Numbered from the stretch's first letter, positions 25,653 to 40,934 are shown. The stretch is DNA of 64,000 nt from Alphaproteobacteria bacterium (GCA_009927055.1 RFNS01000177.1:29794-93793); one strand, 5' to 3'. The notes: a model not told the origin generated them from the sequence alone. Numbers and translations are program-made.

Positions 25653-25729
25653 GCCATTTATTTACGCCAACTCTCTCTGAACCACAAATGGGTTGACGGT
25701 GTGGGGCTTTTTTATCACCTTAGGGGCGC

Positions 25730-26482
25730 ATGCCCACCCCACCCTTGGTTACCGTTGCTGTGCCCAGTTTTCAGCAAGGCCGTTTTCTGGCCGATGCGCT
25801 TGATTCTATCTTGTCGCAACATGTGTCGGTTGAAATTTTTCTGGCCGATGGCGGATCAACCGACCAGACGCCAGAGATCATCAAAAAATACGCCCCCCAT
25901 CTGGCAGGCTGGCGCAGTGAGCGTGATGGCGGCCAGGCCAATGCCATTAACTGGGCCATGGCCCAGGGCACGGCCCCATTTGTGTGCTGGCTGAACAGCG
26001 ATGATGCCTTTGCTGCCAATGGGTTATCAACATTGCTTGATGCATTACAGAAGAACAGTGATTGGGCCATGGCCTATGGCAAGGTGATGAATACCGATGC
26101 AACCCTGACCCCCACCAGCGCTGTGTGGGTTCAATCGTTCAGCCGCTCAAAAATGGCGCAGCGCTGCATCATCAGCCAACCCGGCACCCTGATGCGGCGC
26201 ACGGCATGGGAAGCCGTGGGCGGCGTGAACGGCGCCCTTCATATGGCGATGGACTATGACTTGTGGTGGAAACTGTCAACGCAGGGGCCTTTGGGCCACG
26301 TGCCACGTCTTGTGGCCTATAACCGGGTCCACCCAGAGACAAAAACAAATTCAAAGCGCGTGCAACATTATGTTGAAGCCATGAAGGTGGTGCGCCAGCA
26401 TTATGGGCATGTGCCCCTCAAATGGTGGCTTTACTGGCCTTATGCGGTATGGTTCAAATCACTCCTTAACCCCCAACGTTGA
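25730..26482 (+). CDS. Family 2 glycosyltransferase (GT-A fold)
   Basis: VTVAVPSFQQGRFL...DGGSTDQT...WLNSDD (DxD) pattern; paralog of 27439..28656. Confidence 0.7.
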   Translation: MPTPPLVTVAVPSFQQGRFLADALDSILSQHVSVEIFLADGGSTDQTPEIIKKYAPHLAGWRSERDGGQANAINWAMAQGTAPFVCWLNSDDAFAANGLSTLLDALQKNSDWAMAYGKVMNTDATLTPTSAVWVQSFSRSKMAQRCIISQPGTLMRRTAWEAVGGVNGALHMAMDYDLWWKLSTQGPLGHVPRLVAYNRVHPETKTNSKRVQHYVEAMKVVRQHYGHVPLKWWLYWPYAVWFKSLLNPQR

Positions 26483-26490
26483 GACACTGC

Positions 26491-27432
26491 ATGGGCGCTG
26501 TCACCTTTTCAATCGATGAAAGACTGCTGGAAATACTTCAAAACAACGGCCGCCTAGATGCGTTTGTGGAAACCGGCACCTTCAAAGGTGATAGCGCGCT
26601 TCTTGCCTCAAAGTATGCCAAAAACGTTTACTCAGTCGAATGGTCAGAAAAGCTCTATGCAGAGGCCTCTGACAAATTGCGTGGTGTGGCGAATATCGCA
26701 TTAACCCAAGGCACATCACCCAACTTCCTGATGACATTAAAAAGCAGGCTTGCTGAACGTCAGATTGTGTATTTTTTAGATGCACATTGGTGCGTTCATG
26801 CCAACACCGCTGGGGAAGAATCGCAATGCCCGCTCTTGGAAGAGTTGAAAAGCATCGGCAGCTTAAAAAGTCGTGATATTGTCATCATCGATGATGCAAG
26901 GCTTTTTTTATGCTCCCCCCCTGCTCCTCATCATGTCACCGATTGGCCAAAACTGCACGACATCATTACAGCCCTTCAGCGCCTGAGCGCCTCTCATCGT
27001 CTCGCCGTCTGCAATGATATGATTTTATTTTATCCGGAGGATATGGAAACGCTCCTGTCAACCTATGCCATCAACCACGGCATTGACTGGCTTCACATCA
27101 TGCACCAAAACCGCGCCATTCAAAATGAGCACATCACCAAAGAGCACTTTTTTGCCGAGCAACGGCGATTGATTCAACTTGCACACGAAAAAGATGCCCT
27201 GATCCACCGGTATGAGGCGATATTCCAATCTTCTGCCAGCCTCAGCGATATTCACCCCGGCTTTATCTCAGAAATCCGCCGGCTTAACCATGAAGTTGCT
27301 TACTATCAGTCGCTCAGCAACGCCTACAAAGTTTATAGCGGCGGCGCCTTCAGTCAGTTGAAGGTGCAAGTGACAGCCGCGCTTGCCCGGTTAGGTCAAC
27401 GCTTGTCTCACCTGATCAGACGCACGTCTTGA
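26491..27432 (+). CDS. Class I SAM-dependent O-methyltransferase-like protein (family-3 OMT-like N-terminal domain) with C-terminal coiled-coil extension; start uncertain (TTG 26479 in track)
   Basis: FVETGTFKGDSALLAS (SAM motif I-like), ...VYFLDAHW..., ...DIVIIDDARLF... resemble the O-methyltransferase family-3 pattern. Confidence 0.45.
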   Translation: MGAVTFSIDERLLEILQNNGRLDAFVETGTFKGDSALLASKYAKNVYSVEWSEKLYAEASDKLRGVANIALTQGTSPNFLMTLKSRLAERQIVYFLDAHWCVHANTAGEESQCPLLEELKSIGSLKSRDIVIIDDARLFLCSPPAPHHVTDWPKLHDIITALQRLSASHRLAVCNDMILFYPEDMETLLSTYAINHGIDWLHIMHQNRAIQNEHITKEHFFAEQRRLIQLAHEKDALIHRYEAIFQSSASLSDIHPGFISEIRRLNHEVAYYQSLSNAYKVYSGGAFSQLKVQVTAALARLGQRLSHLIRRTS

Positions 27433-27438
27433 AAAGTC

Positions 27439-28656
27439 GTGACTGGACAAGTGACTGTTAAGCAGCCTATATCCTTTTCAGGAAAAAAACTTAAGCAAAA
27501 CACCCATCTTGGTGCAAAAAATATGACCAAACCTCAACTCCTTTCATCATCCGAACACACGACATCTCCAATCCAGGAGGATGAGGTTTTGAGCACAAAT
27601 GTTTTGTCGCGACTCCAAGAAGTGACAAAACATCTTGAAAAAATTGATACCCAATTGACCAAAAATAACAAGCACCTTGAGAATATAGAAGGTTTGATAT
27701 GCTCGAAAATGAATTCGTCGGCTGCCAACAAAACTTCTTCACTTGTAAAGCGCCTTTTCTGGCCGCGCTTGGGCAACTTGAACCAATCGCCGCCTTGCCA
27801 ACTTCTGCTTGATGACAGCTATTTCAAAACTTCGCCCCCCCCGAAGGCGCCAAAAATTTCTCTTGTCACGCCATCGTTTCGGCAAGGCGCCTTTATCGAA
27901 CGAACAATCCTCAGCATCCTTCATCAGGATTATCCCAATCTTGAATATATTGTTCAGGATGGTGGATCGACCGATGATACCGTTGCGCATCTAAAAAAAT
28001 ATGAACATCGCCTGACATCGTGGGTGAGCGAAAAAGATGGCGGACAAACCAACGCCATTAATCGCGGCTTTGCCAAAACGGACGGCGAGATTATGGGCTG
28101 GCTCAACTCCGATGATCTGCTGCTGCCAGGCAGCCTGAACACGGTTGCCAACTTTTTTGCCCAAAACCCGCATGTGGACGTGGTCTATGGCCACCGCATC
28201 CTGATTAATGAGCATGACCATCAGATTGGGCGCTGGATCATGCCCAACCACAATCACGATGTTTTATCGTGGGCCGATTTTATTCCACAAGAAACCATGT
28301 TCTGGCGGCGCAGCCTGTGGGAAAAAGTGGGCGCCAGCCTGGATGAAAACTTTAAGTTCGCCATGGATTGGGATTTGATCCTGCGTTTTCGGAAAGCGGG
28401 CGCAAAGTTTGTGCGAATCCCCCGTTTTCTTGGCGCCTTTCGCATCCATTCTGCCCAAAAAACCTCGGCTGTTATTTCTGATATCGGCTTTAAGGAAATG
28501 GATATTCTACGCAAACGGGAAATTGGCTACGTTCCAGGTTATCCGGAAATACGCAAAAATCTGCTGATCTATATCTTGGAACATATTGCGCTGGATTACT
28601 CTTACCGCCTGTCGAGAAATTTCAAACCGCGCAAACCTTTTATGGTGATGGCCTAG
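27439..28656 (+). CDS. Family 2 glycosyltransferase with about 140-aa low-complexity/coiled-coil N-terminal extension (GTG start in track; alternative ATG about 27523)
   Basis: C-terminal 260 aa parallel 25730..26482 (VTPSFRQGAFIERTILSILHQ...DGGSTDDT...WLNSDD); N-terminal region low-GC. Confidence 0.65.
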   Translation: MTGQVTVKQPISFSGKKLKQNTHLGAKNMTKPQLLSSSEHTTSPIQEDEVLSTNVLSRLQEVTKHLEKIDTQLTKNNKHLENIEGLICSKMNSSAANKTSSLVKRLFWPRLGNLNQSPPCQLLLDDSYFKTSPPPKAPKISLVTPSFRQGAFIERTILSILHQDYPNLEYIVQDGGSTDDTVAHLKKYEHRLTSWVSEKDGGQTNAINRGFAKTDGEIMGWLNSDDLLLPGSLNTVANFFAQNPHVDVVYGHRILINEHDHQIGRWIMPNHNHDVLSWADFIPQETMFWRRSLWEKVGASLDENFKFAMDWDLILRFRKAGAKFVRIPRFLGAFRIHSAQKTSAVISDIGFKEMDILRKREIGYVPGYPEIRKNLLIYILEHIALDYSYRLSRNFKPRKPFMVMA

Positions 28657-28660
28657 ATTC

Positions 28661-31519
28661 ATGCTGGCTCTCGCACTCAGTTTTTTGTTGCTTATTTATT
28701 TCTCGATGGTCGGTTTTAGCGCGCTTGGTTTCACGCAATTAAGACAACGATTGATGATTAAACTGCTGCTGGCCCCTGCGGTGGGAATTGGGTTGGTGAT
28801 GGTCCCCATCAACCTGCTTCATTTTTTTAATTTACCTATCAGCACCATCTGCTGGCCTGTTTTTATGGCCACAATTTTTATCGCTATCTTGCTTCTGTTA
28901 AGGCAAAAACCTATTATCCACACGCATCACGTCATACGCGTGGGGCTCATTGCCCTCGCCGCCTTGCTGGTGGTGGGGTGGCCCATGTTGCTGTTCGGGC
29001 TTGACTGGCTTAGCTACACCAACGATGACATGGCCAATTATGTTCTGGGGGCGCAGCGTTGTCTGCTGCACGGCCTTCAAGACAGGCCACCTGCCACTGC
29101 ATTCTCAGAGCACACCGACTACACCGCCTTTTTCTGGTTCATGCATTGGTTTGGCGGGCACCGCGTGGGATCGGAGCAGATGATCGCCTATTTCTGGGGA
29201 TTAACCGGGCTAAACGGGCACCAGCTGTTTGTACCGATGATGAACTGCTTTCACATGGCGTTGGTCATGGCGGCCGGCGGGCTTGTGTCGGCCAATTTTT
29301 CGGGCTCACGGCAGGCTTATGTCACTCTTATTCTCATGGCTTTATCACCCCTCACAGGATTGGGCACCCTCTTTCAGCTGATCGCGCAACTGATGGGTTT
29401 ACCCGTTTTATGCGCTCTGCTGGCTCTCTCACACCGACTGGCACGGCCGACATCCTCGCACTTGGTCGGCCATATCTTGATCACCGCCTTGTTGTTCGGG
29501 GGTCTTTGCATCATTTACCCCGAAACCCTACCGTTTTATGTTCTCAGTGTCATTGTTTTTCTGCTGGCCATGACATGGCGCCGCGGGCGCACTCAAAACA
29601 CCTTACGCCTGCTCATCATTGGTAGCATCATTGCCTTGGGGAGCCTGCTGTTACTGAACGTCACTTTGGCGAACATTGTGCATTTCATGATCACGCAGGC
29701 ACAGTCGGGATCGAGCGCCCATGTGGTGCGTGGGCTGATCTTACCTTATTTCATGCTACCCACAGGGTTGCCCACTTTTTGGGGGATTTTGCCACTCACC
29801 GCCCATCTTCCCCTGCCCGACATCCTGAAAGATGTCGTGATGAATGGAATGATTCTTGTGGCCATAGCTCTTTTTGGTATCTTGCTCTGGCAACTGTTCA
29901 AACAAATAAAAAAACAAACCGTCTGCGCCATCACATCTCTTGTGATGCTTCTGCTGGGGGGTTATCTGTTCTACCAAGTTAGTGATTTTGGTCTTTTCAA
30001 GCTGTCGATGTTTATCCAGCCTTTTGTGCTGGGTGTCATGGCGATCTGGCTTTGTGAAAAGAAAAAACTTTTTTCTCCTCGCCGACAAAAAATCGTTCTG
30101 TTGCTGCTGTTGGTTCCAACCTTGGTGACTTATGGCGGCTATACGCTACGCAGCACGGGCACGATCAGCGGCAGTGCCAATGATGTGCCGCTTGCTAGCC
30201 TTAAAAAGGTCAACCAGCAATTTGCACAAACCATGGAAGAGGCCAAAGAAAAAGGCCTGAATCTTTTATGGTCAGATGCATCATGTACTGTGCTGGCTAA
30301 GTTTCAATCATTATACGCGCTGGGTGAATCTTTCCTCCTCCCCTCGCGGGATTTTCTGGGGAAACTTTTGGATCAAGCCACAGGCAAGCCTTCACCCCTC
30401 ATGAGTGAGGAAGATATTCGTGCAGGCCATGAGCTCGATCAGATTCACATCCATCAACGTCGCGTCCATCTGATGGATAATCATTCTGTTGTTAACCGGT
30501 TCAAGGTTGTCAACAACCTGGGCGATGAATTATCGCGGCGCGCCTTAATCACAACCAACCAATCACAAAGCTTTTATAATGCTTATTATGCCAACCATGA
30601 TGACGCCCCTTACTTTAGAATAGATACAAAACCGCGCAATCATCTTGTGTTTGTTTTTTCTGATTTCGGCAACCACTATTACCTGCATGATGTTAAAAAA
30701 ATTTCGTATTTTGAGTTAGAGCGAGACCCGATGTTTCCCGGCCGCCAGTTTGCAAGCATGGGGCAGTATCTTGTATTCTTTATGGTTGGCGCGCCCCAGC
30801 AACCCCGCGTTTTAATGGAACTGACCAGCACCATTCTTAAACACAAAGGCAGCCAGTTGCCCCAGCCCGTCATCTCAGGAACAGAGGAAACGGTGATGCC
30901 GTTTGTGGGGCGCGGCTCTGGCCGCATGGTCAGCGCGCCTGTGCAAGGCAAAATGATTGAAGGCGCGCCCTTTCTGGCCTTCGATATGCAATCGCCCCCC
31001 GAGCGCATGCCCATTCACCGCACAGGCCTGATGAACCTGTATCACCCTGAAATACCGCTTGATCTGCGTAACATCAGCGTGTTTGGACGCGATGTATCGA
31101 TTATCGACGACGAGGATTATGGCGCGTGGCAACGACCATCGTGGCTTGAAAAATTTCCGGCCGATCTGTCGCACAAACATCTGGAATATTCGGGCATTTA
31201 TGAGGATGGATGGCTGTCTGAACACAGTTTGTTTGTTTTATCACGCCCCGATAAAAATTCAGTCCTGCACATTCAAGGATTGATCCCTTTGGTAAAAAAT
31301 AGCCAATTCAGCACAACTCTGACTGTAAAAATAAATGGGAAGAATATGTTGGAACAACAATTAGCTTTGGGCGAGTTTCACTTCCGCATCCCGTCCGATC
31401 AGTTGCCCGAAAGCACAAGCTACCGCATTGAACTCATTTTCTCTGCCGCCCAGAAGCTGCCAGGCGATGATGCCCGCGTGGCCGTGGGCCAGCTGCACGC
31501 CATCGGGTTCAGGCCCTGA
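28661..31519 (+). CDS. Large polytopic membrane protein, putative GT-C-fold glycosyltransferase (YfhO/ArnT-like architecture: 12-15 TM N-terminal half plus about 450-aa extracytoplasmic C-terminal domain)
   Basis: 952 aa; many TM helices to about residue 480; conserved acidic pair in first extracytoplasmic loop (WLSYTNDDMANY); immediately followed by GtrB-like and GtrA-like genes. Confidence 0.45.
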   Translation: MLALALSFLLLIYFSMVGFSALGFTQLRQRLMIKLLLAPAVGIGLVMVPINLLHFFNLPISTICWPVFMATIFIAILLLLRQKPIIHTHHVIRVGLIALAALLVVGWPMLLFGLDWLSYTNDDMANYVLGAQRCLLHGLQDRPPATAFSEHTDYTAFFWFMHWFGGHRVGSEQMIAYFWGLTGLNGHQLFVPMMNCFHMALVMAAGGLVSANFSGSRQAYVTLILMALSPLTGLGTLFQLIAQLMGLPVLCALLALSHRLARPTSSHLVGHILITALLFGGLCIIYPETLPFYVLSVIVFLLAMTWRRGRTQNTLRLLIIGSIIALGSLLLLNVTLANIVHFMITQAQSGSSAHVVRGLILPYFMLPTGLPTFWGILPLTAHLPLPDILKDVVMNGMILVAIALFGILLWQLFKQIKKQTVCAITSLVMLLLGGYLFYQVSDFGLFKLSMFIQPFVLGVMAIWLCEKKKLFSPRRQKIVLLLLLVPTLVTYGGYTLRSTGTISGSANDVPLASLKKVNQQFAQTMEEAKEKGLNLLWSDASCTVLAKFQSLYALGESFLLPSRDFLGKLLDQATGKPSPLMSEEDIRAGHELDQIHIHQRRVHLMDNHSVVNRFKVVNNLGDELSRRALITTNQSQSFYNAYYANHDDAPYFRIDTKPRNHLVFVFSDFGNHYYLHDVKKISYFELERDPMFPGRQFASMGQYLVFFMVGAPQQPRVLMELTSTILKHKGSQLPQPVISGTEETVMPFVGRGSGRMVSAPVQGKMIEGAPFLAFDMQSPPERMPIHRTGLMNLYHPEIPLDLRNISVFGRDVSIIDDEDYGAWQRPSWLEKFPADLSHKHLEYSGIYEDGWLSEHSLFVLSRPDKNSVLHIQGLIPLVKNSQFSTTLTVKINGKNMLEQQLALGEFHFRIPSDQLPESTSYRIELIFSAAQKLPGDDARVAVGQLHAIGFRP

Positions 31520-31558
31520 TCACTTGCCATGATGCGTGGCTTTATTTATCGATAAGAG

Positions 31559-32509
31559 ATGACTCGCGAAGCCCCCAACCCCCTGCTGTCGGTTGTTGTT
31601 CCTGTCTATAAGGAGGAAAACAGCATTAAGCCTTTTCTGGCGCGCATAGAGCCTGTGTGCCAAAAAATTGCCGGCGATTCTTATGAAATTATCTTTTCAC
31701 TCGATCCATCGCCCGACAAAACCGAAGATGTGATTATGGCCGAAATTCAGCGCAACCCCCATATTCGGCTGCTTGTTTTCTCGCGGAGGTTTGGGCAACC
31801 GGCCGCCACCATGGCGGGCATTTTGTCATCGCAAGGGCAACACTGCGTGGCGATTGATGTTGACCTGCAAGACCCGCCCGAATTGATTGAAACCATGTTC
31901 CAAAAACTGGGCGAGGGGTTTGAAGTGGTTTATGCCCAGCGCCGCACGCGCGAGGGCGAAACGTGGGTGAAAAAAACCATTGCTGAATTCGGTTATGCGG
32001 TCATCAATAAACTGAGTGATGTTAAAATCCCCCGCAACACGGGCGATTTTCGCATCATGACACGCCGCGTGGTGGAAGAACTGCGCCGCCTGAACGAAAC
32101 GCACGGCTTTTTGCGCGGGCTGGTGGCGTTTGTGGGCTTTAAGCAGGCCGCAGTGTTATACGATCGCGATGCACGCTTTGCTGATGTGGGCAAATATAAT
32201 CGCCTGACAGGTTCTTTCAAAATTGGCCTGAACGGTCTGGTTGGGTTCAGCAGTCGGCCCCTTCAGTTTATGTCGCTGATTGGTTTTTGCTTCGCCATGA
32301 TTGGCTTTTTGCTGGGGGCCTGGTACGTTTTCCAAAAAATTGTGGGTATTGAACTCACCCCCGGTCTTTCAACCACTGTGCTGGTTGTCACGTTCTTTTC
32401 TGGCGTACAGCTGCTGGCGCTGGGGCTGATGGGCGAATATGTGGGCCGCATTTATGACGAAGTGAAACGCCGCCCCGCCTATATTGTCGATCGCAAGGTC
32501 AATTTTTAA
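31559..32509 (+). CDS. Polyprenyl-phosphate glycosyltransferase (GtrB/CsbB/ArnC/DPM1-like GT2 with C-terminal TM pair)
   Basis: LSVVVPVYKEE...DDGS-like region, DVDLQDPPE (DxD), C-terminal two TM helices; 316 aa. Confidence 0.75.
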   Translation: MTREAPNPLLSVVVPVYKEENSIKPFLARIEPVCQKIAGDSYEIIFSLDPSPDKTEDVIMAEIQRNPHIRLLVFSRRFGQPAATMAGILSSQGQHCVAIDVDLQDPPELIETMFQKLGEGFEVVYAQRRTREGETWVKKTIAEFGYAVINKLSDVKIPRNTGDFRIMTRRVVEELRRLNETHGFLRGLVAFVGFKQAAVLYDRDARFADVGKYNRLTGSFKIGLNGLVGFSSRPLQFMSLIGFCFAMIGFLLGAWYVFQKIVGIELTPGLSTTVLVVTFFSGVQLLALGLMGEYVGRIYDEVKRRPAYIVDRKVNF

Positions 32510-32916
32510 TGATGGCGCTTATCAGGGAAAATCTGCGCCGGCCGGCGGTGCGATATATCTTGGTGGGCGTCACCAACACAACTTTCGCATGGCTGCTCAT
32601 GAACCTCACGCTGGGCCCGCTGGCCATGAGCCCGGCCGCCGGCATGGCCATCGTTTTTGCTTTAACGGCCATTTTTCATTTTATCGCCAATCGGCAGTTC
32701 ACCTTTCAAAGCAAGGGCAAGTGGCAGCATGATGTGCTGCGGTATCTTATCCTTTTGGGTGTCAATTACTTATCAACAACCGCCCTCACCCAATGGTTGA
32801 CCGATTTGTCGCTGCCGCTATTAATCATCACAACAGCCGCAACGGTGTGGAGCGCGCTGCTGGGCTTTGCGGGGGGCAAATTTTTTGTTTTTCGCAACGC
32901 ATCGTCATCTCTTTGA
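32509..32916 (+). CDS. GtrA-family small membrane protein (polyprenyl-P-sugar flippase-like)
   Basis: 135 aa, 4 TM, RYILVGVTNTTFAWLL... typical GtrA fold; start overlaps upstream stop (TAATG). Confidence 0.7.
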   Translation: MMALIRENLRRPAVRYILVGVTNTTFAWLLMNLTLGPLAMSPAAGMAIVFALTAIFHFIANRQFTFQSKGKWQHDVLRYLILLGVNYLSTTALTQWLTDLSLPLLIITTAATVWSALLGFAGGKFFVFRNASSSL

Positions 32917-34006: not shown

Positions 34007-34993
34007 ATGCGCGTAGGCATTGTGGGCTGTGGGTTGATTGGCCAAAAACGCGCCAAGGCGCTGGCGGGCGCGCATCTCACCATGTGCGCCGATGTGGTGA
34101 TGGATCGCGCCGCCGCACTGGCCAAAACCGCCAAGGCCGAGGCGACCGATGACTGGCAAAAACTGGTGACAAGCCCCCATGTTGATGTGGTTGTGGTGGC
34201 CACGCGGCATGATGTGCTGGCCCCCATAACCCGCGCCGCCATCGACAACGGCAAGCACGTTCTGGTTGAAAAACCGGCCGCACGACACACCACCGAACTG
34301 GCGGGCCTGGCCGATGCGGCCAAGCAAAAAAAGGTTTGCGTGCGCGTGGGGTTTAATCATCGCTATCATCGCGCTTTCCAAAAAGCACGGCAGATTGTGG
34401 ACAGCGGCGCGCTGGGCGAGATGATGTTTATTCGCGCGCGCTATGGCCACGGCGGGCGCGTGGGATACGATAAAGAATGGCGGGCTGATCCCGCGCTCTC
34501 TGGTGGGGGCGAGCTGATTGACCAAGGCGTGCACCTGATTGATCTGGCTGGGTGGTTTCTGGGAAATTTCCCCCACGTTGATGGTTTTGCGCACACATAT
34601 TTTTGGCAAATGCCGGTTGATGATAACGGCTTTATGATTTTGCGGACAGAAAAAAACCAGGTGGCCTTCTTGCATGCCAGCTGCACCGAATGGAAAAACA
34701 CTTTTTCGTTCGAAATGTATGGCCGCACCGGCAAACTTCATATCGAAGGTTTGGGCGGCAGCTATGGCGTTGAGCGTCTGACGCACTATGCCATGCAGCC
34801 CGAAATGGGCCCGCCGCCCACCGAAGCGTGGGAGTATCCGATGGCCGATAACTCGTGGGATGTTGAAATGGCCGAATTTCTGGCCGATATTCAGCAGGGG
34901 CGCACACCGGCCGCCGGCCTTGCAGAGGCCGAGGCCGCCCTGACAGTTGTTCAAAAAATCTACGAAAGGTCTGGATATGATCATCGCCCGTAG
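34007..34993 (+). CDS. Gfo/Idh/MocA family NAD(P)-dependent sugar oxidoreductase
   Basis: MRVGIVGCGLIGQKRAKAL..., EKP motif (VLVEKPAA). Confidence 0.75.
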   Translation: MRVGIVGCGLIGQKRAKALAGAHLTMCADVVMDRAAALAKTAKAEATDDWQKLVTSPHVDVVVVATRHDVLAPITRAAIDNGKHVLVEKPAARHTTELAGLADAAKQKKVCVRVGFNHRYHRAFQKARQIVDSGALGEMMFIRARYGHGGRVGYDKEWRADPALSGGGELIDQGVHLIDLAGWFLGNFPHVDGFAHTYFWQMPVDDNGFMILRTEKNQVAFLHASCTEWKNTFSFEMYGRTGKLHIEGLGGSYGVERLTHYAMQPEMGPPPTEAWEYPMADNSWDVEMAEFLADIQQGRTPAAGLAEAEAALTVVQKIYERSGYDHRP

Positions 34994-35957
34994 TCCCCTT
35001 CGCGTCACCCTTGGCGGCGGCGGCACCGATTTGCCTTCGTATTATCGCGAACACGAAGGATTTTTGATCGCCGCGGCGATTGATAAATATGTTTATGTCA
35101 CCGTCATGCGGCCATTTACGCCCGGAATTTTTTTGAAATACTCGCAACTTGAAAATGTGCCGCAGCCCGATGACGTGAAGCACCCCATTGTGCGCGAAGC
35201 CCTGCACATCATGAAAGAGCCCGTGCCGCAGGTTGAAATTACCACGCTGGCCGATATTCCTTCGGGTACGGGGCTTGGCTCATCGGGCAGTTTTACAACA
35301 GCCCTGATGAAGGCCCTGTATATGCATCACAAAAAACTTATTTTGCCGGCCGAGCTGGCCGAACTGGCATGCCACATTGAGATTGACCGATTGAAGGAGC
35401 CGGTGGGCAAGCAAGATCAATACATCGCGGCCTATGGCGGCATTACCTGCTTTACCTTCTGCCGCGATGATAAAGTGCAGGCGCGCCCCCTCAACATCAA
35501 TTCAGAAACGATGTTTGATCTGGAAGATAATTTGCTGCTGTTCTTCACCGGTTTTTCGCGCAGCGCCGGCAGCATTTTGAAAGACCAGAACACCAAAACG
35601 CAGCAAAATAATAACGATATGATTGCCAACCTGAATTATGTGAAAGACCTTGGCCTGCGCAGTCAAAAGGCGCTGGAAGCCGGCAACGCGCGCGAATTTG
35701 GCGCCCTGATGCACGAACATTGGGAGCACAAGAAAAAACGCAGCGGCGGCATGAGCAACCCCAAAATTGACGAATGGTATGAACTGGGCATGACAAGCGG
35801 CGCGGTGGGTGGCAAGCTGGTGGGCGCGGGCGGCGGTGGCTTCCTTATGTTCTATGCCGAGGATAGAAACAAACTGAAACATGCGATGGTGAAAGCGGGG
35901 CTGGAAGAAGTCCGTTTTCGGTTTGATTTTGAAGGCACAAAAATTGTGTTGAACTGA
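34977..35957 (+). CDS. GHMP kinase, D-glycero-alpha-D-manno-heptose 7-phosphate kinase (HddA-like)
   Basis: ARSPLRVTLGGGGTDLPSYY..., GHMP motif PSGTGLGSSGSFTTAL; positioned with gmhA/gmhB/nucleotidyltransferase. Confidence 0.65.
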   Translation: MIIARSPLRVTLGGGGTDLPSYYREHEGFLIAAAIDKYVYVTVMRPFTPGIFLKYSQLENVPQPDDVKHPIVREALHIMKEPVPQVEITTLADIPSGTGLGSSGSFTTALMKALYMHHKKLILPAELAELACHIEIDRLKEPVGKQDQYIAAYGGITCFTFCRDDKVQARPLNINSETMFDLEDNLLLFFTGFSRSAGSILKDQNTKTQQNNNDMIANLNYVKDLGLRSQKALEAGNAREFGALMHEHWEHKKKRSGGMSNPKIDEWYELGMTSGAVGGKLVGAGGGGFLMFYAEDRNKLKHAMVKAGLEEVRFRFDFEGTKIVLN

Positions 35958-36661
35958 TGATCCCCGTTGCCATTTTGGCGGGTGGGCTGGCCACGCGCCT
36001 TCGCCCCATCACCACAACCATCCCCAAGGCTTTGGCCGAAGTAGCGGGCCACCCCTTTATTCATTGGCAGCTGCAAGATCTTGCGGTGCAGGGCGCGCAC
36101 GATGTGGTGATGCTGGTGGGCTATTTGGGCGAGCAGATTGAAAAAGAAATTGGCAACGGCCACCAATACGGCCTGAACATTCGCTATGTTTTTGATGGGC
36201 CAACACTGCTGGGCACCGGCGGCGCGTTGCGTCAGGCCCTGCCGCTGCTGGGCGATGCGTTTTTTGTGCTGTATGGCGATTCCTTTTTGCAGGTCAATTA
36301 TCAGGCGGTGGAGGCGGCCTTTATCAAAAGCGGCCAGCGCGCCCTGATGACCGTGTTAAAAAACGGCAACCAATGGGACAAAAGCAATGCAACCTTCAGC
36401 GGCGGCCAACTGATTGAATATAATAAGAAAAGCCCCACACCCGCCATGACCTATATCGATTATGGCCTCAGCATTTTAACCCGCCAGGCCCTTGAAGACT
36501 GGCACGAAAACGGTGTGTTTGATCTGGCCAGTTTGTTTCACTATCTTTCGGTGAGCGGACAATTGGCGGGTTTTGAGGTGTTTGAGCGTTTCTATGAAAT
36601 CGGCACCCCGCAATCACTCGCCGAAGCCAACGCATACTTTTCATCAAAGAGGAAACCATGA
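35957..36661 (+). CDS. Sugar-1-phosphate nucleotidyltransferase (HddC-like D-glycero-alpha-D-manno-heptose 1-phosphate guanylyltransferase)
   Basis: AILAGGLATRLRPITTTIPKAL... NTP_transferase signature, 234 aa. Confidence 0.65.
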   Translation: MIPVAILAGGLATRLRPITTTIPKALAEVAGHPFIHWQLQDLAVQGAHDVVMLVGYLGEQIEKEIGNGHQYGLNIRYVFDGPTLLGTGGALRQALPLLGDAFFVLYGDSFLQVNYQAVEAAFIKSGQRALMTVLKNGNQWDKSNATFSGGQLIEYNKKSPTPAMTYIDYGLSILTRQALEDWHENGVFDLASLFHYLSVSGQLAGFEVFERFYEIGTPQSLAEANAYFSSKRKP

Positions 36662-37287
36662 CCTACGCCGCGCAACACATTCAAGAATCCATTCAGATTT
36701 TACAAAAAATTGATGCCGCCGCGATTGAACGCATGGCCGATGAGCTGGCCGCACTCCGCGCGCGCGGTGGACGACTGATTTTTCTGGGCGTGGGCGGCAG
36801 TGCGGGCAACTGCGGTCATGCCGTCAATGATTTTAGAAAAATTGTGGGCATCGAAAGTTATGCCCCCACCGATAATGTTTCAGAACTCACCGCGCGCACC
36901 AACGATGAAGGCTGGGCCAGCATTTTTATCGAGTGGTTGAAGGTTAGCAAACTGAACAACAATGATGCGGTTTTTGTTTTCTCGGTTGGCGGCGGCAATA
37001 TTGAAAAAAACATCAGCCCCAATTTGGTCACGGCCCTTCAACACGCCAAAAGTGTGGGTGCAAAAATTTTGGGCGTGGTGGGGCGCGATGGCGGCTATAC
37101 CGCCCAGGTGGCCGATGCCTGCGTGATTGTGCCCACCGTGAACAATGATAACGTCACACCCCACAGCGAGGCGTTTCAGGCCGTGGTGTGGCATTTGCTG
37201 GTGTCGCATCCCAAACTGAAAGCCAACCAAACAAAATGGGAAAGCGCCACAGGTTCGCCCGCGGTTTCTACAGCCAAAGTGGCCTAA
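36658..37287 (+). CDS. gmhA: Sedoheptulose-7-phosphate isomerase (SIS domain, GmhA)
   Basis: SIS domain GVGGSAGNCGHAVNDF..., ...FSVGGGN... Confidence 0.75.
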   Translation: MTYAAQHIQESIQILQKIDAAAIERMADELAALRARGGRLIFLGVGGSAGNCGHAVNDFRKIVGIESYAPTDNVSELTARTNDEGWASIFIEWLKVSKLNNNDAVFVFSVGGGNIEKNISPNLVTALQHAKSVGAKILGVVGRDGGYTAQVADACVIVPTVNNDNVTPHSEAFQAVVWHLLVSHPKLKANQTKWESATGSPAVSTAKVA

Positions 37288-37290
37288 GCG

Positions 37291-37824
37291 TTGACGCGCG
37301 CCGTTTTTCTTGATCGTGATGGTGTGCTGAATGCCTCGCTGGTGCGCGATGGCCAGCCCTTTCCGCCCGCCACCCTTGATGAGCTGGATATTTTGCCAGG
37401 CGTGCCCGAAGCGCTGCACAAACTGCATCATGCCGGTTTTCTTTTGCTGGTGTGCACCAATCAACCCGATATTGCGCGCGGCAAAACCAAACTGGCCGAT
37501 GTGCAAAAAATCCACGCGCACATGATGCAGACATTGCCGCTGGATGATGTTTTTATGTGCCCGCATGATGGGGGCGATGGTTGCGCGTGCCGCAAGCCCA
37601 AACCAGGCATGATTGTGCAAGGGGCCGAGAAATGGGGCGTTGACCCCCGCCAAAGCTTTATGGTGGGCGACCGCTGGCGCGATGTGGCGGCGGGCCAGGC
37701 CGCCGGTTGCACCAATTATTTTATCAACTATAACTACAACGAATCCCAGCCGCAGCCCCCTTTTTTTGAGGTTGCCTCACTTCTGGAGGCCGCGGATCAT
37801 ATCCTCTCTAACCCGGTCACATGA
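37291..37824 (+). CDS. gmhB: D,D-heptose 1,7-bisphosphate phosphatase (HAD-IIIA, GmhB)
   Basis: TTG start; AVFLDRDGVLN (DxDGT/V motif), CxHxxxxGCxCRKP zinc-binding insertion typical of GmhB. Confidence 0.7.
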   Translation: MTRAVFLDRDGVLNASLVRDGQPFPPATLDELDILPGVPEALHKLHHAGFLLLVCTNQPDIARGKTKLADVQKIHAHMMQTLPLDDVFMCPHDGGDGCACRKPKPGMIVQGAEKWGVDPRQSFMVGDRWRDVAAGQAAGCTNYFINYNYNESQPQPPFFEVASLLEAADHILSNPVT

Positions 37825-37831
37825 GGGCCCC

Positions 37832-38548
37832 ATGCCAAGCATCCATGAACTGAACGTGAAAATTTTTGCCGATGGTGCCGATAAAACAGGCATGCTGGAC
37901 ATGGCGGCGAAGGATCATATCAAAGGCCTGACCACCAACCCCACGCTGATGAATAAAGCCGGCATCAAAGATTATGAAGCCTTTGCGAAAGATATTTTGT
38001 CGGTCATTCAAACCAAACCTATTTCGTTTGAAGTTTTTTCAGATGATTTTGCCGATATGGAACGTCAGGCTCACAAAATCGCCAGCTGGGCCGATAATGT
38101 TTATGTAAAAATCCCCATCACCAACACAAAAGGTGAAAGCGCGGCACCGCTGGTGGCCAAACTGGCGCAACAAAGAATAAAACTGAACATCACCGCGCTG
38201 ATGACGCTTGATCAGGTGAAAACCGTTGTGGCTGCGGTGCAACCCGATGTGCCCAGCTATATCTCTGTTTTTGCGGGCCGCATTGCCGATACGGGCATCG
38301 ACCCCCTGCCCCTCATGCAGGCCTCGATTACGGCGATGAAGGCCAAACCCGCTTCTGAGCTGATCTGGGCCAGCCCGCGCGAACTGCTGAACGTTTTTCA
38401 GGCCGATGCGATTGGCTGCCACATTATTACCGTGACCAACGATATTTTGAAAAAATTATCGCTGGTGGGGTATGACCTGAACACCTATTCGCTGGATACC
38501 GTGAAAATGTTTTATAACGATGCGACGGCGGCGGGTTTTAAGCTATGA
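37832..38548 (+). CDS. Transaldolase/fructose-6-phosphate aldolase family (short TalC/FSA type)
   Basis: FADGAD..., TTNPTL, KIPIT (Schiff-base Lys), [16 protein letters not shown] motifs; GAGGG RBS. Confidence 0.7.
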
Positions 38549-39627
38549 AAAAAGCACTGATCACAGGCATTACGGGGCAGGATGGCGCCTATTTGGCTGA
38601 GTTTTTACTTGGCAAAGGGTATGAAGTTCACGGCGTCAAGCGTCGCAGCTCGCTGTTTAATACGCAGCGCATCGACCACATTTATCAAGACCCGCACGAA
38701 AAAGACCGCAGGCTGTTTCTCTATCACGGCGATATGACCGACAGCCTAAGTTTGCTGCGTGTTGTGCAGCGCGTTCAGCCCGATGAGATTTATAATCTTG
38801 CCGCGCAAAGCCACGTGGCCGTTAGTTTTGAAGAACCTGAATATACCGCGAATTCCGATGCGCTGGGCGCCCTCCGCCTCCTGGAAGCCATTCGCATTTT
38901 AGGGTTAGAGAAAAAAACACGCTTTTATCAGGCCAGCACGTCTGAACTTTATGGGTTGGTGCAAGAAATTCCGCAAAAAGAAACCACACCGTTTTATCCG
39001 CGCAGCCCCTATGCCGTGGCCAAGCTTTATGCCTACTGGATTACGGTCAACTACCGCGAAGCCTATGGCATGTATGCCTGCAACGGCGTGCTGTTTAACC
39101 ACGAAAGCCCGCTGCGTGGCGAAACATTTGTGACGCGCAAAATCACGCGGGCTATCTCGCGCATTTATTTGGGCCTGCAAGATTGTTTGTATATGGGCAA
39201 CCTGAACGCCAAGCGCGATTGGGGCCACGCGCGCGATTATATCGAGATGCAATGGCTGATGCTGCAGCAAAAACAGCCCGAAGATTTTGTCATCGCCACC
39301 GGTGTTCAGGCCAGCGTGCGCGATTTTATAGAAATGTCGGCGGCCGAAGTGGGCATCAAACTCACATGGCGCGGTCATGGTGTTGATGAAAAAGGCTATG
39401 ATCAAAACGACAAATGCATTGTGGCGGTTGATCCGCGCTATTTCCGCCCAACCGAGGTGGATACTCTTTTGGGCGATGCGACCAAGGCGCGCGTCAAACT
39501 TGGCTGGCAACCCAAAATTACTCTTGAAGAACTGGTGAAGGAAATGATGCAGGCCGACGTGATATCGGCCAAACGTGATGACCTGATTAAAAAGCACGGC
39601 TATGCCGTGTTCAACCACAACGAATAG
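38545..39627 (+). CDS. gmd: GDP-mannose 4,6-dehydratase
   Basis: [21 protein letters not shown]..., [17 protein letters not shown], 360 aa. Confidence 0.85.
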
Positions 39628-39629
39628 CC

Positions 39630-40601
39630 ATGGACGCCAACACAAAAATTTATGTGGCAGGACACCGCGGGCTGGCGGGGTCGGCCATTGTGCGCGGCCT
39701 TCAACGTGCCGGTTATTCAAACATTATCACGCGCACGCATGCCGAGCTTGATTTAACCCTCCCCCAACCAACAGATGATTTTTTTAGCACCACAAAGCCC
39801 GATGTTGTTTTTCTGGCCGCCGCCAAGGTGGGCGGCATTGTGGCCAACAACACTTATCCGGCTGATTTTTTGCGCGAAAACCTGGCCATTCAGAACAACG
39901 TGATTGATGCCGCGCATCGTCATGGCGTGGCGCGGCTTGTTTTTCTTGGCTCCAGCTGCATTTACCCGCGCGATTGTCCGCAGCCAATCAAAGAAAATTA
40001 TCTGCTCACAGGCCCGCTGGAGGCCACCAACAGCGCCTATGCTCTGGCCAAAATTTCAGGCGTTGAAATGTGCCGCGCTTATAATCAGCAGCATGGCACG
40101 CATTTTTTGGCTGCCATGCCCACCAATCTTTATGGACCTGGCGATAATTATGATTTGCAGCATTCGCACGTGCTGCCCGCCCTTATTCGCAAGGCGCACG
40201 AAGCCAAACAGGCCGGCGCCGCCGACATGGTGGTGTGGGGCACAGGCACACCGAAGCGCGAGCTGCTTTATTCTGATGATCTGGCCGATGCGCTGGTCAT
40301 GCTGATGCAGCTGCCCCCGCCTGCTTTTCAAAAAATATTGACCGATGAACGCTGGCCCCTCATCAACGTGGGCTGCGGCGAGGATTTAACCATCCGCGAA
40401 CTGGCGCAATTAGCCATTGAACAAGTTGGCTTCAGCGGTCAGCTGCGTTTTGACACCACACGGCCCGATGGCACCCCCCGCAAGGTGATGGATGTCTCGC
40501 GCATCAAGGCGCTGGGCTGGTCGCCAAAAATTTCTCTGGCGCACGGCATCAGCCTCGCCTATGCCGATTATCTGCAGCGCAGCCAAAAACAGGCAGCGTA
40601 A
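39630..40601 (+). CDS. fcl: GDP-L-fucose synthase (GDP-4-keto-6-deoxy-D-mannose 3,5-epimerase/4-reductase)
   Basis: KIYVAGHRGLAGSAIVR..., SSCIYP, YALAKISG catalytic triad context; 323 aa. Confidence 0.85.
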   Translation: MDANTKIYVAGHRGLAGSAIVRGLQRAGYSNIITRTHAELDLTLPQPTDDFFSTTKPDVVFLAAAKVGGIVANNTYPADFLRENLAIQNNVIDAAHRHGVARLVFLGSSCIYPRDCPQPIKENYLLTGPLEATNSAYALAKISGVEMCRAYNQQHGTHFLAAMPTNLYGPGDNYDLQHSHVLPALIRKAHEAKQAGAADMVVWGTGTPKRELLYSDDLADALVMLMQLPPPAFQKILTDERWPLINVGCGEDLTIRELAQLAIEQVGFSGQLRFDTTRPDGTPRKVMDVSRIKALGWSPKISLAHGISLAYADYLQRSQKQAA

Positions 40602-40711
40602 TTACTGCGTTAACACAGAAATATGCCTCAGTTGTCGCGGCGCATGACGCACATCAGGGCATGGCAAAGTGCACAAAATATGGTTCGCTGTTTGCATCAG
40701 TTCGGCTTCAG

Positions 40712-40888
40712 TCATACCACCTTTTTACTGGTTTTACTGGCCCCTGTGACATAAACATTCAACACAAATTCAGCGCCACCAAACTGTTTTGGGTCAACCT
40801 TCTCGCCATAACCTATCACGGCTTCTATGCCATGAGCTAACAGCGCCGCTCTGATTTCTCGTTCATAAAACTCGGTGTTTTTTTGCAT
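40712..40888 (-). CDS. Small hypothetical protein (58 aa) with strong AAGGAG RBS, low-GC spacer between glycan island and nuoC
   Basis: ATG 40888 preceded 8 nt by AAGGAG; MQKNTEFYEREIRAALLAHGIEAVIGYGEKVDPKQFGGAEFVLNVYVTGASKTSKKVV. Confidence 0.35.
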   Translation of the reverse strand: MQKNTEFYEREIRAALLAHGIEAVIGYGEKVDPKQFGGAEFVLNVYVTGASKTSKKVV

Positions 40889-40934
40889 TGTTATCTCCTT
40901 CGAATGCTTTATTAAACAATAGTCACACAACAAA

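What the first reader, a model, noticed from the sequence alone, without database searches (positions are those of the whole stretch)
25653..40934. 15-kb co-directional glycan-biosynthesis island inserted between nuoC and nuoD, in opposite orientation to the nuo genes
nuoA, nuoB and nuoC (42760..40935, minus strand) and nuoD (25652..24438, minus strand) would normally be contiguous. Here they are separated by 15 tightly packed plus-strand genes: two GT2s, an O-methyltransferase-like gene, a large putative GT-C, GtrB-like and GtrA-like genes, an epimerase, a Gfo/Idh/MocA oxidoreductase, four GDP-heptose pathway genes, a transaldolase, gmd and fcl. Many of them have overlapping stop/start codons, which suggests translational coupling. 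nuoD is then followed by a lipoprotein gene and clpB rather than nuoE. Either the respiratory operon has been split by an acquired surface-polysaccharide or protein-glycosylation locus, or this lineage has an unusual fragmented nuo organisation.
Basis: partly seen in the sequence, partly recalled or inferred. Interest (0 to 1): 0.75.

Follow-up and report, generated by a model that had tools for sequence, protein, structure and literature searches.

The report
Glycan operon splitting a nuo operon
In one uncultured alphaproteobacterium, a 15-gene sugar-polymer operon sits between two respiratory complex I genes (nuoC and nuoD) that are adjacent in nearly all its relatives; the break is real and specific to this lineage, but it is an ordinary kind of genome rearrangement.

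Summary
nuoA-(GNAT)-nuoB-nuoC (42760..40935, minus) and nuoD (25652..24438, minus) are separated by 15 tightly packed plus-strand glycan genes. nuoD is followed by a lipoprotein gene and clpB, not nuoE.

Both junctions recur in independent assemblies, so this is not a chimera. Among 160 related loci with sequence upstream of nuoD, 159 have nuoC directly before nuoD, and all 160 with sequence downstream have nuoE after it. The nearest NuoD outside this population is only 85-86% identical. The split is therefore derived and lineage-specific.

The nuo cluster is cut in at least two places, and the genes upstream of nuoA also differ from several relatives. I could not find nuoE-N. There is no integrase, tRNA or flanking repeat, and GC is only slightly lower (0.523 against 0.548), so recent foreign acquisition is not shown.

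Split nuo clusters are already documented. Interest is low to moderate.

The parts
42392..42760 (-). nuoA
   Evidence: PF00507, E 2.8e-38; 61-80% identical to NuoA of relatives
42062..42385 (-). 107-aa GNAT acetyltransferase gene between nuoA and nuoB
   Evidence: Acetyltransf_1 and related Pfam families. Best NCBIfam match is AAC(6')-like at 71 bits, below its cut-off. None of 139 relatives has more than 66 bp between nuoA and nuoB.
41498..42058 (-). nuoB
   Evidence: PF01058, E 9.9e-29
40935..41501 (-). nuoC, last nuo gene of the first fragment
   Evidence: PF00329, E 3.9e-49, profile positions 3-123 of 124. NCBI protein NBX73621.1.
40712..40888 (-). 58-aa ORF just after nuoC, preceded by GGAGA; function unknown
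   Evidence: Called as a gene in two assemblies. No family match. No homologue in the related loci.
40602..40711 (.). convergent gap between the 3' end of the glycan operon and the 3' end of the nuoABC unit
   Evidence: Sequence read. It folds no better than shuffled sequence on either strand, z +1.2 and +1.7.
39630..40601 (+). fcl-like GDP-L-fucose synthase
   Evidence: NF047922 at 451.9 bits, cut-off 500. Epimerase Pfam, E 2.5e-61.
38545..39627 (+). gmd, GDP-mannose 4,6-dehydratase
   Evidence: TIGR01472 at 595.5 bits, above the cut-off of 415
37832..38548 (+). transaldolase
   Evidence: TIGR02134 at 338.9 bits, above the cut-off of 281.95
37324..37824 (+). GmhB-like HAD-IIIA phosphatase
   Evidence: TIGR01656 at 129 bits, above its cut-off of 84. 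GmhB models at 127 and 96 bits, below theirs. Start as called.
36658..37287 (+). SIS-domain isomerase, GmhA-like
   Evidence: PF13580, E 1.2e-8. TIGR00441 gmhA at 45.8 bits, cut-off 209.
35957..36661 (+). sugar-1-phosphate nucleotidyltransferase (HddC- or MurU-like)
   Evidence: PF00483. MurU at 129 bits (cut-off 250) and HddC at 84.5 bits (cut-off 300).
34977..35957 (+). GHMP sugar kinase, HddA-like
   Evidence: GHMP_kinases_N and _C. HddA model at 157 bits, cut-off 600. 76% identical to the partial homologue at the end of L087.
34007..34993 (+). Gfo/Idh/MocA oxidoreductase
   Evidence: PF01408 and PF22725. 64% identical to the L087 homologue, which also lies next to the GHMP kinase gene.
32926..33888 (+). 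SDR sugar epimerase/dehydratase
   Evidence: PF01370, E 9.5e-51. 70% identical to the L087 homologue.
32509..32916 (+). GtrA-family small membrane protein
   Evidence: PF04138, E 8.8e-14
31559..32509 (+). GtrB-like polyprenyl-phosphate glycosyltransferase (GT2 with C-terminal membrane helices)
   Evidence: PF00535. Best NCBIfam matches are PgfS at 232 bits and ArnC at 146 bits, both below cut-off. Hydrophobic segments at residues 234-293.
28661..31519 (+). 952-aa membrane protein with a predicted GT-C fold and C-terminal beta-sandwich (CBM-like) domains
27439..28656 (+). GT2 glycosyltransferase; start uncertain, with gene callers giving 355 and 377 aa
   Evidence: PF00535, E 2.3e-23. Called lengths. 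57% identical to part of a gene next to the 952-aa homologue in L088.
26479..27432 (+). 317-aa ORF of unknown function
   Evidence: No family at E<=0.001. Methyltransf_24 at E 0.061 only.
25730..26482 (+). GT2 glycosyltransferase, first gene of the glycan operon
   Evidence: PF00535, E 1.2e-19
25653..25729 (.). 77-bp divergent intergenic region between nuoD and the glycan operon; presumed site of both promoters
   Evidence: Sequence read. No promoter-like site reached the scan threshold here.
24438..25652 (-). nuoD, isolated from the other nuo genes
   Evidence: PF00346, E 1.5e-127. Full length, with conserved N- and C-termini against relatives. NBX73605.1.
23860..24441 (-). 193-aa lipoprotein gene overlapping the nuoD stop codon by 4 bp, in the place of nuoE
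   Evidence: Signal peptide with lipobox LLALSAC. No family. No homologue in the related loci.
21203..23785 (-). clpB
   Evidence: AAA_2, ClpB_D2-small and Clp_N
42959..44380 (-). Wzy_C (O-antigen ligase/polymerase family) membrane protein directly upstream of nuoA
   Evidence: PF04932, E 1.1e-21. About 10 hydrophobic segments.

Best explanation
This is chromosomal DNA of an uncultured alphaproteobacterium in which the normally contiguous nuoA-N cluster has been broken by rearrangements specific to this lineage.

It now consists of at least three pieces:
- nuoA-GNAT-nuoB-nuoC-orf58
- nuoD-lipoprotein gene
- nuoE-N, somewhere I could not find

A 15-gene, co-directional glycan-biosynthesis operon lies between the first two pieces on the opposite strand. 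nuoABC and nuoD keep their original order and orientation, so the simplest history for this junction is the insertion or translocation of the 15-kb block into the nuoC-nuoD spacer. A separate event cut nuoD from nuoE.

Inferred consequences:
- nuoD must now be transcribed from its own promoter, in or near the 77-bp divergent region shared with the glycan operon.
- nuoABC is a separate transcript that converges on the 3' end of the glycan operon.
- Complex I is presumably still assembled from separately expressed subunits.

The glycan operon probably works as follows (inferred from families and fold, not shown):
- Transaldolase, a SIS isomerase, a GHMP kinase, a HAD phosphatase and a nucleotidyltransferase make an NDP-heptose, probably GDP-D-glycero-alpha-D-manno-heptose.
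- Gmd and Fcl make GDP-fucose or a 6-deoxy-heptose.
- The epimerase, GtrB and GtrA load a sugar onto undecaprenyl phosphate and flip it across the membrane.
- The 952-aa GT-C-fold enzyme transfers that sugar to a periplasmic acceptor.
For: The arrangement is real:
- The nuoD|GT2 junction appears in ENA ERZ28577356 (a 97.7-kb scaffold), ENA ERZ28575597, NCBI GCA_010027225.1 and Logan SRR8075935.
- The fcl|nuoC junction appears in ERZ28575597 and SRR8075935.
- These loci are 99.98-100% identical to the window.
- NuoD and the 952-aa protein carry accessions from three NCBI MAG series: NBX, NDC and NDG.

The state is derived:
- I examined 80 GTDB species representatives and 80 JGI metagenome contigs, with NuoD 74-85% identical, plus 8 further loci.
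- The nuoC-to-nuoD gap has a median of 15 bp and a maximum of 853 bp (n=159).
- nuoD is followed by nuoE in 160 loci.
- None of these loci holds a relative of an island gene, the lipoprotein or clpB.
- The nearest relatives by NuoD, at 85-86% identity (L005, L089, L175, L176), keep nuoA-L in order.
- Among 5.8 billion protein clusters, this NuoD has one near-identical variant. The next hit is at 86%.

There is a second break. No NuoE-L homologue lies in the window or in the 10 kb beyond its right end.

Related lineages tolerate foreign genes inside nuo. L176 carries orf153 between nuoC and nuoD, three genes between nuoF and nuoG, and a GIY-YIG gene between nuoG and nuoH. L005 and L089 carry ORFs between nuoB and nuoC and between nuoE and nuoF.

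Literature: most clades hold a mix of split and single-cluster complex I. [quoted passage not shown]

Glycan module:
- The GT-C fold rests.
- The order 952-aa homologue, GtrB, GtrA, epimerase, then Gfo and the GHMP kinase, is conserved in L087 at 64-76% identity for the enzymes.
- Other homologues of the 952-aa protein always sit in polysaccharide clusters.
Against: - nuoE-N of this organism was not found, so I cannot show that these nuoA-D genes are the cell's only or working copies.
- No relative closer than 86% NuoD identity exists in the collections. The event cannot be dated, and insertion cannot be told apart from a series of other rearrangements.
- The genes upstream of nuoA (Wzy_C, pgk) also differ from the clpX-lon-hup context in L089 and L175. 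That fits general scrambling as well as it fits one clean insertion.
- No promoter or terminator could be identified. The promoter scan found no more sites than shuffled sequence (17 found, 17.6 expected), and the convergent gap is not structured.
- The heptose pathway assignment is at domain level only.
Confidence: 0.7

Rival explanations
1. Recent horizontal acquisition: the 15-kb block is a foreign surface-glycan island that integrated into the nuoC-nuoD spacer.
For: - nuoABC and nuoD keep their order and orientation on either side of the block.
- Relatives lack the block.
- GC is a little lower, 0.523 against 0.548, and falls to 0.491 over orf317, the second GT2 and the 952-aa gene. GC3 differs at Mann-Whitney p 0.012.
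- A homologous cassette with 64-76% identical enzymes sits in a genome stretch of very different composition, L087 at GC 0.437.
Against: - No integrase, transposase, tRNA gene or flanking direct or inverted repeat lies at the borders.
- Per-gene codon-usage distance overlaps that of the flanking genes.
- Polysaccharide loci often have lower GC without being recent imports (my own knowledge).
- Other glycan genes (Wzy_C at 42959-44380, GT4 plus a PglF-like gene at 16136-19000) sit in the same neighbourhood outside the block.
Confidence: 0.35
2. The nuoABC and nuoD genes here are remnants of a duplicated or decaying second nuo cluster. A complete nuoA-N operon elsewhere does the work.
For: nuoE-N were not found near these genes. 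Some alphaproteobacteria carry two nuo clusters (my own knowledge).
Against: - All four proteins are full length with complete Pfam coverage.
- NuoD is 85% identical to orthologues over 96-100% of its length, with a conserved C-terminus.
- No frameshifts are present.
- Their closest relatives are the main, mitochondrial-type operons of related MAGs.
Confidence: 0.1
3. Assembly artefact: a chimeric contig joins unrelated fragments at nuoC and nuoD.
For: The source is metagenomic. One MAG, GCA_010027225.1, is highly fragmented, with contigs of 4.5 and 7.6 kb.
Against: Both junctions are spanned by contigs from different samples and different assemblers, with 99.98-100% identity to the window. 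Gene spacing at the junctions looks natural: 77 bp divergent and 110 bp convergent.
Confidence: 0.03

Closest known systems
Canonical alphaproteobacterial nuoA-N (nqo) operon with interspersed unidentified reading frames, as in Paracoccus denitrificans and Rhodobacter capsulatus (my own knowledge) and in loci L005, L089, L175 and L176 here
   Same: The subunit genes are the same, and so is the internal order A, B, C, then D. Unrelated genes are tolerated between nuo genes: GNAT between nuoA and nuoB here, orf153 between nuoC and nuoD in L176, and methyltransferase genes between nuoF and nuoG in L175 and L176.
   Different: In those operons the inserts are short (at most 3.3 kb) and co-directional, so one transcript remains possible. 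Here the insert is 15 kb on the opposite strand, and nuoE does not follow nuoD.
Split or dispersed nuo gene sets: Rickettsiales (my own knowledge) and the 'split' complex I class of PMC12361115
   Same: Complex I subunit genes lie in several separately transcribed pieces. The paper reports that most clades hold a mix of split and single-cluster forms.
   Different: This organism is not AT-rich or obviously reduced (GC 0.55). It belongs to a group in which 159 of 160 sampled relatives keep nuoC and nuoD together. The full set of pieces is unknown.
Three-component polyprenyl-phosphate-sugar glycosylation modules: GtrA/GtrB/GtrC of Shigella and Salmonella phages, ArnC/ArnE-F/ArnT, and PgfS/PgfE/PgfM of Streptococcus mutans (my own knowledge of these systems)
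   Same: A GT2 with C-terminal membrane helices whose best NCBIfam matches are PgfS and ArnC. A GtrA-family protein, an SDR epimerase and a large GT-C-fold membrane enzyme are all adjacent.
   Different: The GT-C partner belongs to no curated family and carries about 450 residues of CBM-like beta-sandwich domains. Scores for PgfS and ArnC are below their cut-offs. Donor sugar and acceptor are unknown.
GDP-D-glycero-alpha-D-manno-heptose and 6-deoxyheptose loci: Aneurinibacillus thermoaerophilus S-layer glycan, Campylobacter jejuni capsule, Yersinia pseudotuberculosis O-antigen (my own knowledge)
   Same: The same four enzyme classes lie side by side (SIS isomerase, GHMP kinase, HAD-IIIA phosphatase, nucleotidyltransferase), next to Gmd- and Fcl-type enzymes.
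   Different: The HddA, HddC and GmhA models score well below their equivalog cut-offs. A transaldolase and a Gfo/Idh/MocA oxidoreductase are embedded in the set. The nucleotide used is not established, because the MurU model scores higher than the HddC model.
GT-C fold glycosyltransferases with solved structures: STT3/PglB/AglB, ArnT, AftA/AftD, PMTs, ALG enzymes
   Different: Sequence identity is 8-12%. There is no profile match to any PDB chain or to any Pfam or NCBIfam model.

Membership tests
Complex I nuoA-N operon, alphaproteobacterial type | Genes encode NuoA, NuoB, NuoC and NuoD | tested here: met
   PF00507, PF01058, PF00329 and PF00346, all far above gathering scores. 60-88% identity to relatives.
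Complex I nuoA-N operon, alphaproteobacterial type | Genes contiguous and co-directional: nuoC directly followed by nuoD, and nuoD by nuoE | tested here: not met
   15.3 kb of opposite-strand genes separate nuoC from nuoD. A lipoprotein gene and clpB follow nuoD. No NuoE-L homologue in the window. Relatives: 159 of 160 and 160 of 160 contiguous.
Complex I nuoA-N operon, alphaproteobacterial type | Full set nuoE-N present in the genome | tested here: inconclusive
   A NuoE search from the nearest relative found only other organisms' genes. The 10 kb beyond the window holds none. The MAGs are not among the GTDB representatives that were hit.
Mobile genomic island | Integrase, transposase or other mobility gene; insertion at a tRNA gene; flanking direct repeats | tested here: not met
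   No such domains in the 15 genes or their neighbours. The only tRNA genes are at 8.5 and 9.3 kb. Only short, chance-level repeats were found.
Mobile genomic island | Composition clearly different from the host | tested here: inconclusive
   GC 0.523 against 0.548. Mean GC3 0.601 against 0.632, p 0.012. The ranges overlap.
GT-C glycosyltransferase superfamily (952-aa protein) | Multi-pass N-terminal membrane domain followed by a soluble extracytoplasmic domain | tested here: met
   About 13 hydrophobic segments in residues 1-500. The model has helices up to residue 498, then mainly beta structure.
GT-C glycosyltransferase superfamily (952-aa protein) | GT-C fold of the membrane domain | tested here: met
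GT-C glycosyltransferase superfamily (952-aa protein) | Conserved acidic catalytic residue in the first extracytoplasmic loop | tested here: inconclusive
   Invariant D123 and nearly invariant D122 lie in an 'NDDMANY' motif across 45 homologues. I did not establish their side of the membrane or their structural equivalence to the catalytic Asp of PglB or ArnT.
GT-C glycosyltransferase superfamily (952-aa protein) | Match to a curated GT-C sequence family (for example PMT_2, STT3, ArnT) | tested here: not met
   No Pfam hit even at E<=5, no NCBIfam hit and no PDB profile hit. All 56 homologues lack Pfam domains.
GtrA/GtrB/GT-C three-component periplasmic glycosylation | Adjacent GtrB-type GT2 with membrane anchor, GtrA-family protein and GT-C enzyme | tested here: met
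   The same adjacency is found in L087, but not around the homologues in L088, L181 and L182.
GDP-D-glycero-alpha-D-manno-heptose pathway (GmhA, HddA, GmhB, HddC) | All four enzymes present as equivalogs | tested here: inconclusive
   The right domain classes are adjacent. Scores against cut-offs: HddA 157 of 600, HddC 84.5 of 300 (MurU 129 of 250), GmhA 45.8 of 209. Only the HAD-IIIA domain models pass.
GDP-L-fucose synthesis (Gmd, Fcl) | Gmd and Fcl equivalogs | tested here: met
   Gmd at 595.5 bits, above 415. Fcl at 451.9 bits, just under 500.
O-methyltransferase (317-aa ORF) | Significant match to a SAM-dependent methyltransferase family | tested here: not met
   Only Methyltransf_24 at E 0.061 and 14.6 bits, cut-off 26.3. 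No NCBIfam hit.

The most novel reading that the evidence does not exclude
This lineage builds complex I from at least three separately transcribed gene sets. The quinone-site subunit NuoD has its own promoter, set back-to-back within 77 bp with that of a surface-glycan operon. NuoD supply, and therefore complex I assembly, would then be regulated independently and perhaps together with envelope glycan synthesis. The operon's 952-aa enzyme would also represent an uncurated GT-C family of about 950 sequence clusters at E<=1e-30.
Probability: 0.1. Interest if true: 0.5.

Novelty: new member of a known kind. Interest (0 to 1): 0.3.

Why it matters
nuo is among the most stably ordered operons in Alphaproteobacteria. 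In the 160 relatives sampled here, it was intact at this junction in all but one.

This is a natural case in which nuoC and nuoD are separated by 15 kb of opposite-strand genes and nuoD stands alone. In some bacteria these two genes are fused (my own knowledge). The case is consistent with the E. coli report that nuo gene order is not needed for assembly, but it does not test that idea. It could serve as a test of how subunit stoichiometry is kept without co-transcription.

The practical by-product is a high-confidence GT-C-fold model for a protein family with no Pfam or NCBIfam entry, repeatedly found in polysaccharide loci.

None of this opens a new kind of biology. Split nuo clusters and glycan loci of this type are both known.

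Tried and rejected
- **Finding nuoE-N.** I searched with NuoE of the nearest relative. The best candidate, P0065, belongs to another organism with an intact operon. Accession look-up of ten further candidates gave no accessions. Matching contig lengths between the NuoE and NuoD hit lists showed that many candidates sit beside their own NuoD.
- **Looking beyond the window.** Two look-ups failed because the ORF starts I chose were not the called ones. A third, with a corrected start, showed only nth, ogt, his, serS and tat genes.
- **Closer relatives.** The JGI metagenome scan gave at most 82% NuoD identity. The 5.8-billion-cluster search gave nothing between about 100% and 86%.
- **Promoters and terminators.** Promoter-like sites were no more frequent than in shuffled sequence, and none lies in the 77-bp region. 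The convergent gap has no stable hairpin.
- **Boundary repeats.** Only short, low-identity matches.
- **Is the lipoprotein, orf58 or GNAT gene a relic of ORFs inside relatives' nuo operons?** No similarity apart from one weak GNAT hit.
- **Sequence-level link of the 952-aa family to solved structures.** None.
- **AlphaFold database fold search.** The library was not available.
- **Literature search for the sample and assembly accessions.** No paper found. A search for papers on unidentified reading frames in Paracoccus and Rhodobacter nuo clusters returned nothing usable.

Full report
**What is in the sequence**

On the minus strand:
- nuoA, 42392-42760
- nuoB, 41498-42058
- nuoC, 40935-41501
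- nuoD, 24438-25652

Each has a strong, full-length Pfam match.

Between nuoC and nuoD, at 25730-40601 on the plus strand, lie fifteen genes:
- a GT2 glycosyltransferase
- a 317-aa ORF
- a second GT2
- a 952-aa ORF
- a GtrB-like GT2
- GtrA
- an SDR epimerase
- a Gfo/Idh/MocA oxidoreductase
- a GHMP kinase
- a nucleotidyltransferase
- a SIS isomerase
- a HAD phosphatase
- a transaldolase
- Gmd
- an Fcl-like enzyme

With the called starts, five of the fourteen junctions overlap. Seven have gaps of 2-39 nt, and two are longer at 118 and 156 nt. A single operon is therefore plausible.

nuoD overlaps by 4 bp the start of a 193-aa lipoprotein gene with lipobox LLALSAC. clpB follows.

One is a 107-aa GNAT acetyltransferase gene between nuoA and nuoB. 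The other is a 58-aa ORF with a good ribosome-binding site just after nuoC.

**Source, and whether the arrangement is real**

The window matches contigs of an uncultured alphaproteobacterium. NuoD is NCBI protein NBX73605.1 and NuoC is NBX73621.1, both on a 105,373-bp contig. NuoD and the 952-aa protein also carry accessions from two other MAG series, NDC and NDG.

Contigs from different samples and assemblers span the nuoD|GT2 junction: ENA ERZ28577356 and ERZ28575597, NCBI GCA_010027225.1 and Logan SRR8075935. The fcl|nuoC junction is spanned in ERZ28575597 and SRR8075935. These contigs are 99.98-100% identical to the window. A chimeric assembly is very unlikely.

The rest of the window is ordinary chromosomal core: purF, radA, ppdK, proS, pyrD, pgk and hemC-hemD-mitofilin-hemY.

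**Comparison with relatives**

I fetched loci around the closest NuoD genes in three sets:
- 80 GTDB species representatives, 74-85% identical
- 80 JGI metagenome contigs, at most 82% identical
- contigs of the best hits in the 5.8-billion-cluster protein collection

The results:
- In 159 loci that hold both genes, the nuoC-to-nuoD distance has a median of 15 bp and a maximum of 853 bp.
- nuoD is followed by nuoE in all 160 loci with sequence downstream.
- No related locus has a relative of an island gene, the lipoprotein or clpB.

The one exception is L102. There nuoD-E-F is preceded by a MacB/FtsX permease gene instead of nuoC.

In the protein collection this NuoD has a near-identical variant, and then nothing until 86%. 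The lineage is poorly sampled, so the event cannot be dated.

They do not. The arrangement is derived.

**One insertion or general fragmentation?**

nuoABC and nuoD keep their original order and strand on either side of the block. The most economical account of that junction is the insertion or translocation of the block into the nuoC-nuoD spacer.

It is not the only break, however. nuoE does not follow nuoD, and no NuoE-L homologue lies anywhere in the 64 kb or in the 10 kb beyond the right end. Upstream of nuoA the window has Wzy_C and pgk, whereas L089 and L175 have clpX-lon-hup.

Related lineages also carry foreign genes inside nuo, though these are co-directional and short:
- orf153 between nuoC and nuoD in L176
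- two or three genes between nuoF and nuoG in L175 and L176
- a GIY-YIG gene between nuoG and nuoH
- ORFs between nuoB and nuoC and between nuoE and nuoF in L005 and L089

I conclude that the cluster is fragmented into at least three pieces in this lineage.

I failed to find the nuoE-N piece. I therefore cannot rule out that a second, complete operon exists. The intact, well-conserved sequences argue against decay.

**Was the block acquired from outside?**

There is no integrase, transposase, tRNA gene or flanking repeat.

Composition:
- GC is 0.523 in the block against 0.548 in the rest of the window.
- GC is lowest, 0.491, over the 317-aa ORF, the second GT2 and the 952-aa gene.
- Mean GC3 is 0.601 against 0.632 (p 0.012), with overlapping ranges.
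- Codon-usage distances overlap those of the flanks.

A homologous cassette exists in L087, a stretch with GC 0.437. It has the order 952-aa homologue, GtrB, GtrA, epimerase, and later Gfo and the GHMP kinase. The enzymes are 64-76% identical, but the large protein is only 34% identical. This shows that the module occurs in very different genomes. It does not show when it arrived here.

Other glycan genes lie just outside the block: Wzy_C next to nuoA, and a GT4 plus PglF-like dehydratase gene at 16-19 kb. Horizontal origin is possible but not demonstrated.

**The glycan genes**

NCBIfam places the following above their curated cut-offs:
- Gmd, 595 against 415
- the transaldolase, 339 against 282
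- the HAD-IIIA domain of the phosphatase

Fcl falls just below, at 452 against 500.

The kinase, nucleotidyltransferase and isomerase match HddA, HddC or MurU, and GmhA only weakly: 157 of 600, 84 of 300 or 129 of 250, and 46 of 209. The GDP-heptose pathway is a reasonable inference from the four adjacent enzyme classes. It is not an established assignment.

The 317-aa ORF has no significant family. The methyltransferase idea rests on E 0.061.

**The 952-aa protein**

It has no Pfam, NCBIfam or PDB sequence match. A word-based search found 56 homologues, none with a Pfam domain. A profile search of 1.84 billion representatives found 949 at E<=1e-30 and 2215 at E<=0.001.

It has about 13 hydrophobic segments in its first 500 residues.

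An AlphaFold2 model built on 45 homologues is confident, with pLDDT 90 and pTM 0.92:
- **Foldseek.** It agrees, with PglB, AftD, STT3, AftA and DPY19 at the top.

An invariant Asp (D123) lies in an 'NDDMANY' motif and is a candidate catalytic residue. I did not verify its position.

Homologues always sit in polysaccharide clusters. Together with the adjacent GtrB-like GT2, GtrA and epimerase, this fits the three-component scheme. In that scheme a sugar is loaded onto undecaprenyl phosphate, flipped, and transferred in the periplasm by the GT-C enzyme.

**How it probably works**

These points are inferred, not shown:
- nuoD must have its own promoter in or near the 77-bp region it shares divergently with the glycan operon.
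- nuoA-GNAT-nuoB-nuoC-orf58 is a separate unit that converges on the end of the glycan operon.

Consensus scans gave no usable promoter or terminator.

Complex I would be assembled from separately expressed subunits. This is credible, because split nuo clusters occur in most clades. Gene order was also reported as not essential in E. coli (PMC12361115 and its reference to Oppermann 2022).

**Verdict**

'Acquired locus' remains open.

Every component belongs to a known kind:
- a split nuo cluster
- a nucleotide-sugar and Gtr-type glycan operon
- a GT-C-fold enzyme

The unusual points are the position and orientation of the insert within a normally very stable operon, and the fact that the large enzyme's family has no curated model. 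Interest is low to moderate.

Noticed in passing
window 16136-19000 (+): A single 954-aa ORF fuses a GT4 (WecA/MraY-like) domain with a CoA_binding_3 plus Polysacc_synt_2 (PglF/PseB-like) dehydratase. Two ENA assemblies have one extra base at about 16998 (GCCATCTGCC against GCCATTGCC), which splits it into 334-aa and 623-aa genes. The fusion is therefore a 1-nt indel variant or an assembly error.
   Followed up: partly
window 42062-42385 (-): A 107-aa GNAT acetyltransferase gene lies between nuoA and nuoB. Its best NCBIfam match is AAC(6')-like, below cut-off. None of 139 related loci has more than 66 bp between nuoA and nuoB.
   Followed up: partly
window 40712-40888 (-): A 58-aa ORF with a GGAGA ribosome-binding site lies directly after nuoC. 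It was called as a gene in two assemblies, matches no family and has no homologue in the related loci.
   Followed up: partly
L102 1-4391 (Ga0209488_10024423): This is another alphaproteobacterial contig in which nuoD-E-F is not preceded by nuoC. A MacB/FtsX-type permease reading frame runs into nuoD instead. It was the only such case among 160 relatives.
   Followed up: partly
L176 8599-18794, L177, L175 13150-14822, L005 8653-9294 and 11768-12454: The nearest relatives carry co-directional foreign genes inside otherwise ordered nuo operons. Examples are orf110 between nuoB and nuoC, orf153 between nuoC and nuoD, a SAM methyltransferase, a SpoU methylase and orf498 between nuoF and nuoG, and a GIY-YIG gene between nuoG and nuoH. 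None of the small ORFs has a Pfam match.
   Followed up: partly
window 28661-31519 and proteins P0002-P0056, P0318-P0455: The 952-aa protein represents a family with no Pfam or NCBIfam model, with 949 representatives at E<=1e-30 among 1.84 billion. It has a confident GT-C-fold model and CBM-like C-terminal domains.
   Followed up: yes
window 56744-57299 (-): Two small overlapping ORFs correspond to genes called as BrnT_toxin and CopG_antitoxin in a matching contig. A ParD antitoxin gene lies a little further on in that contig.
   Followed up: no
window 52133-52897 (-): A 254-aa ORF with no family match has the lowest GC3 of the genes examined (0.404) and the largest codon-usage distance (0.167). 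On composition it is a better candidate for foreign DNA than anything in the glycan block.
   Followed up: no
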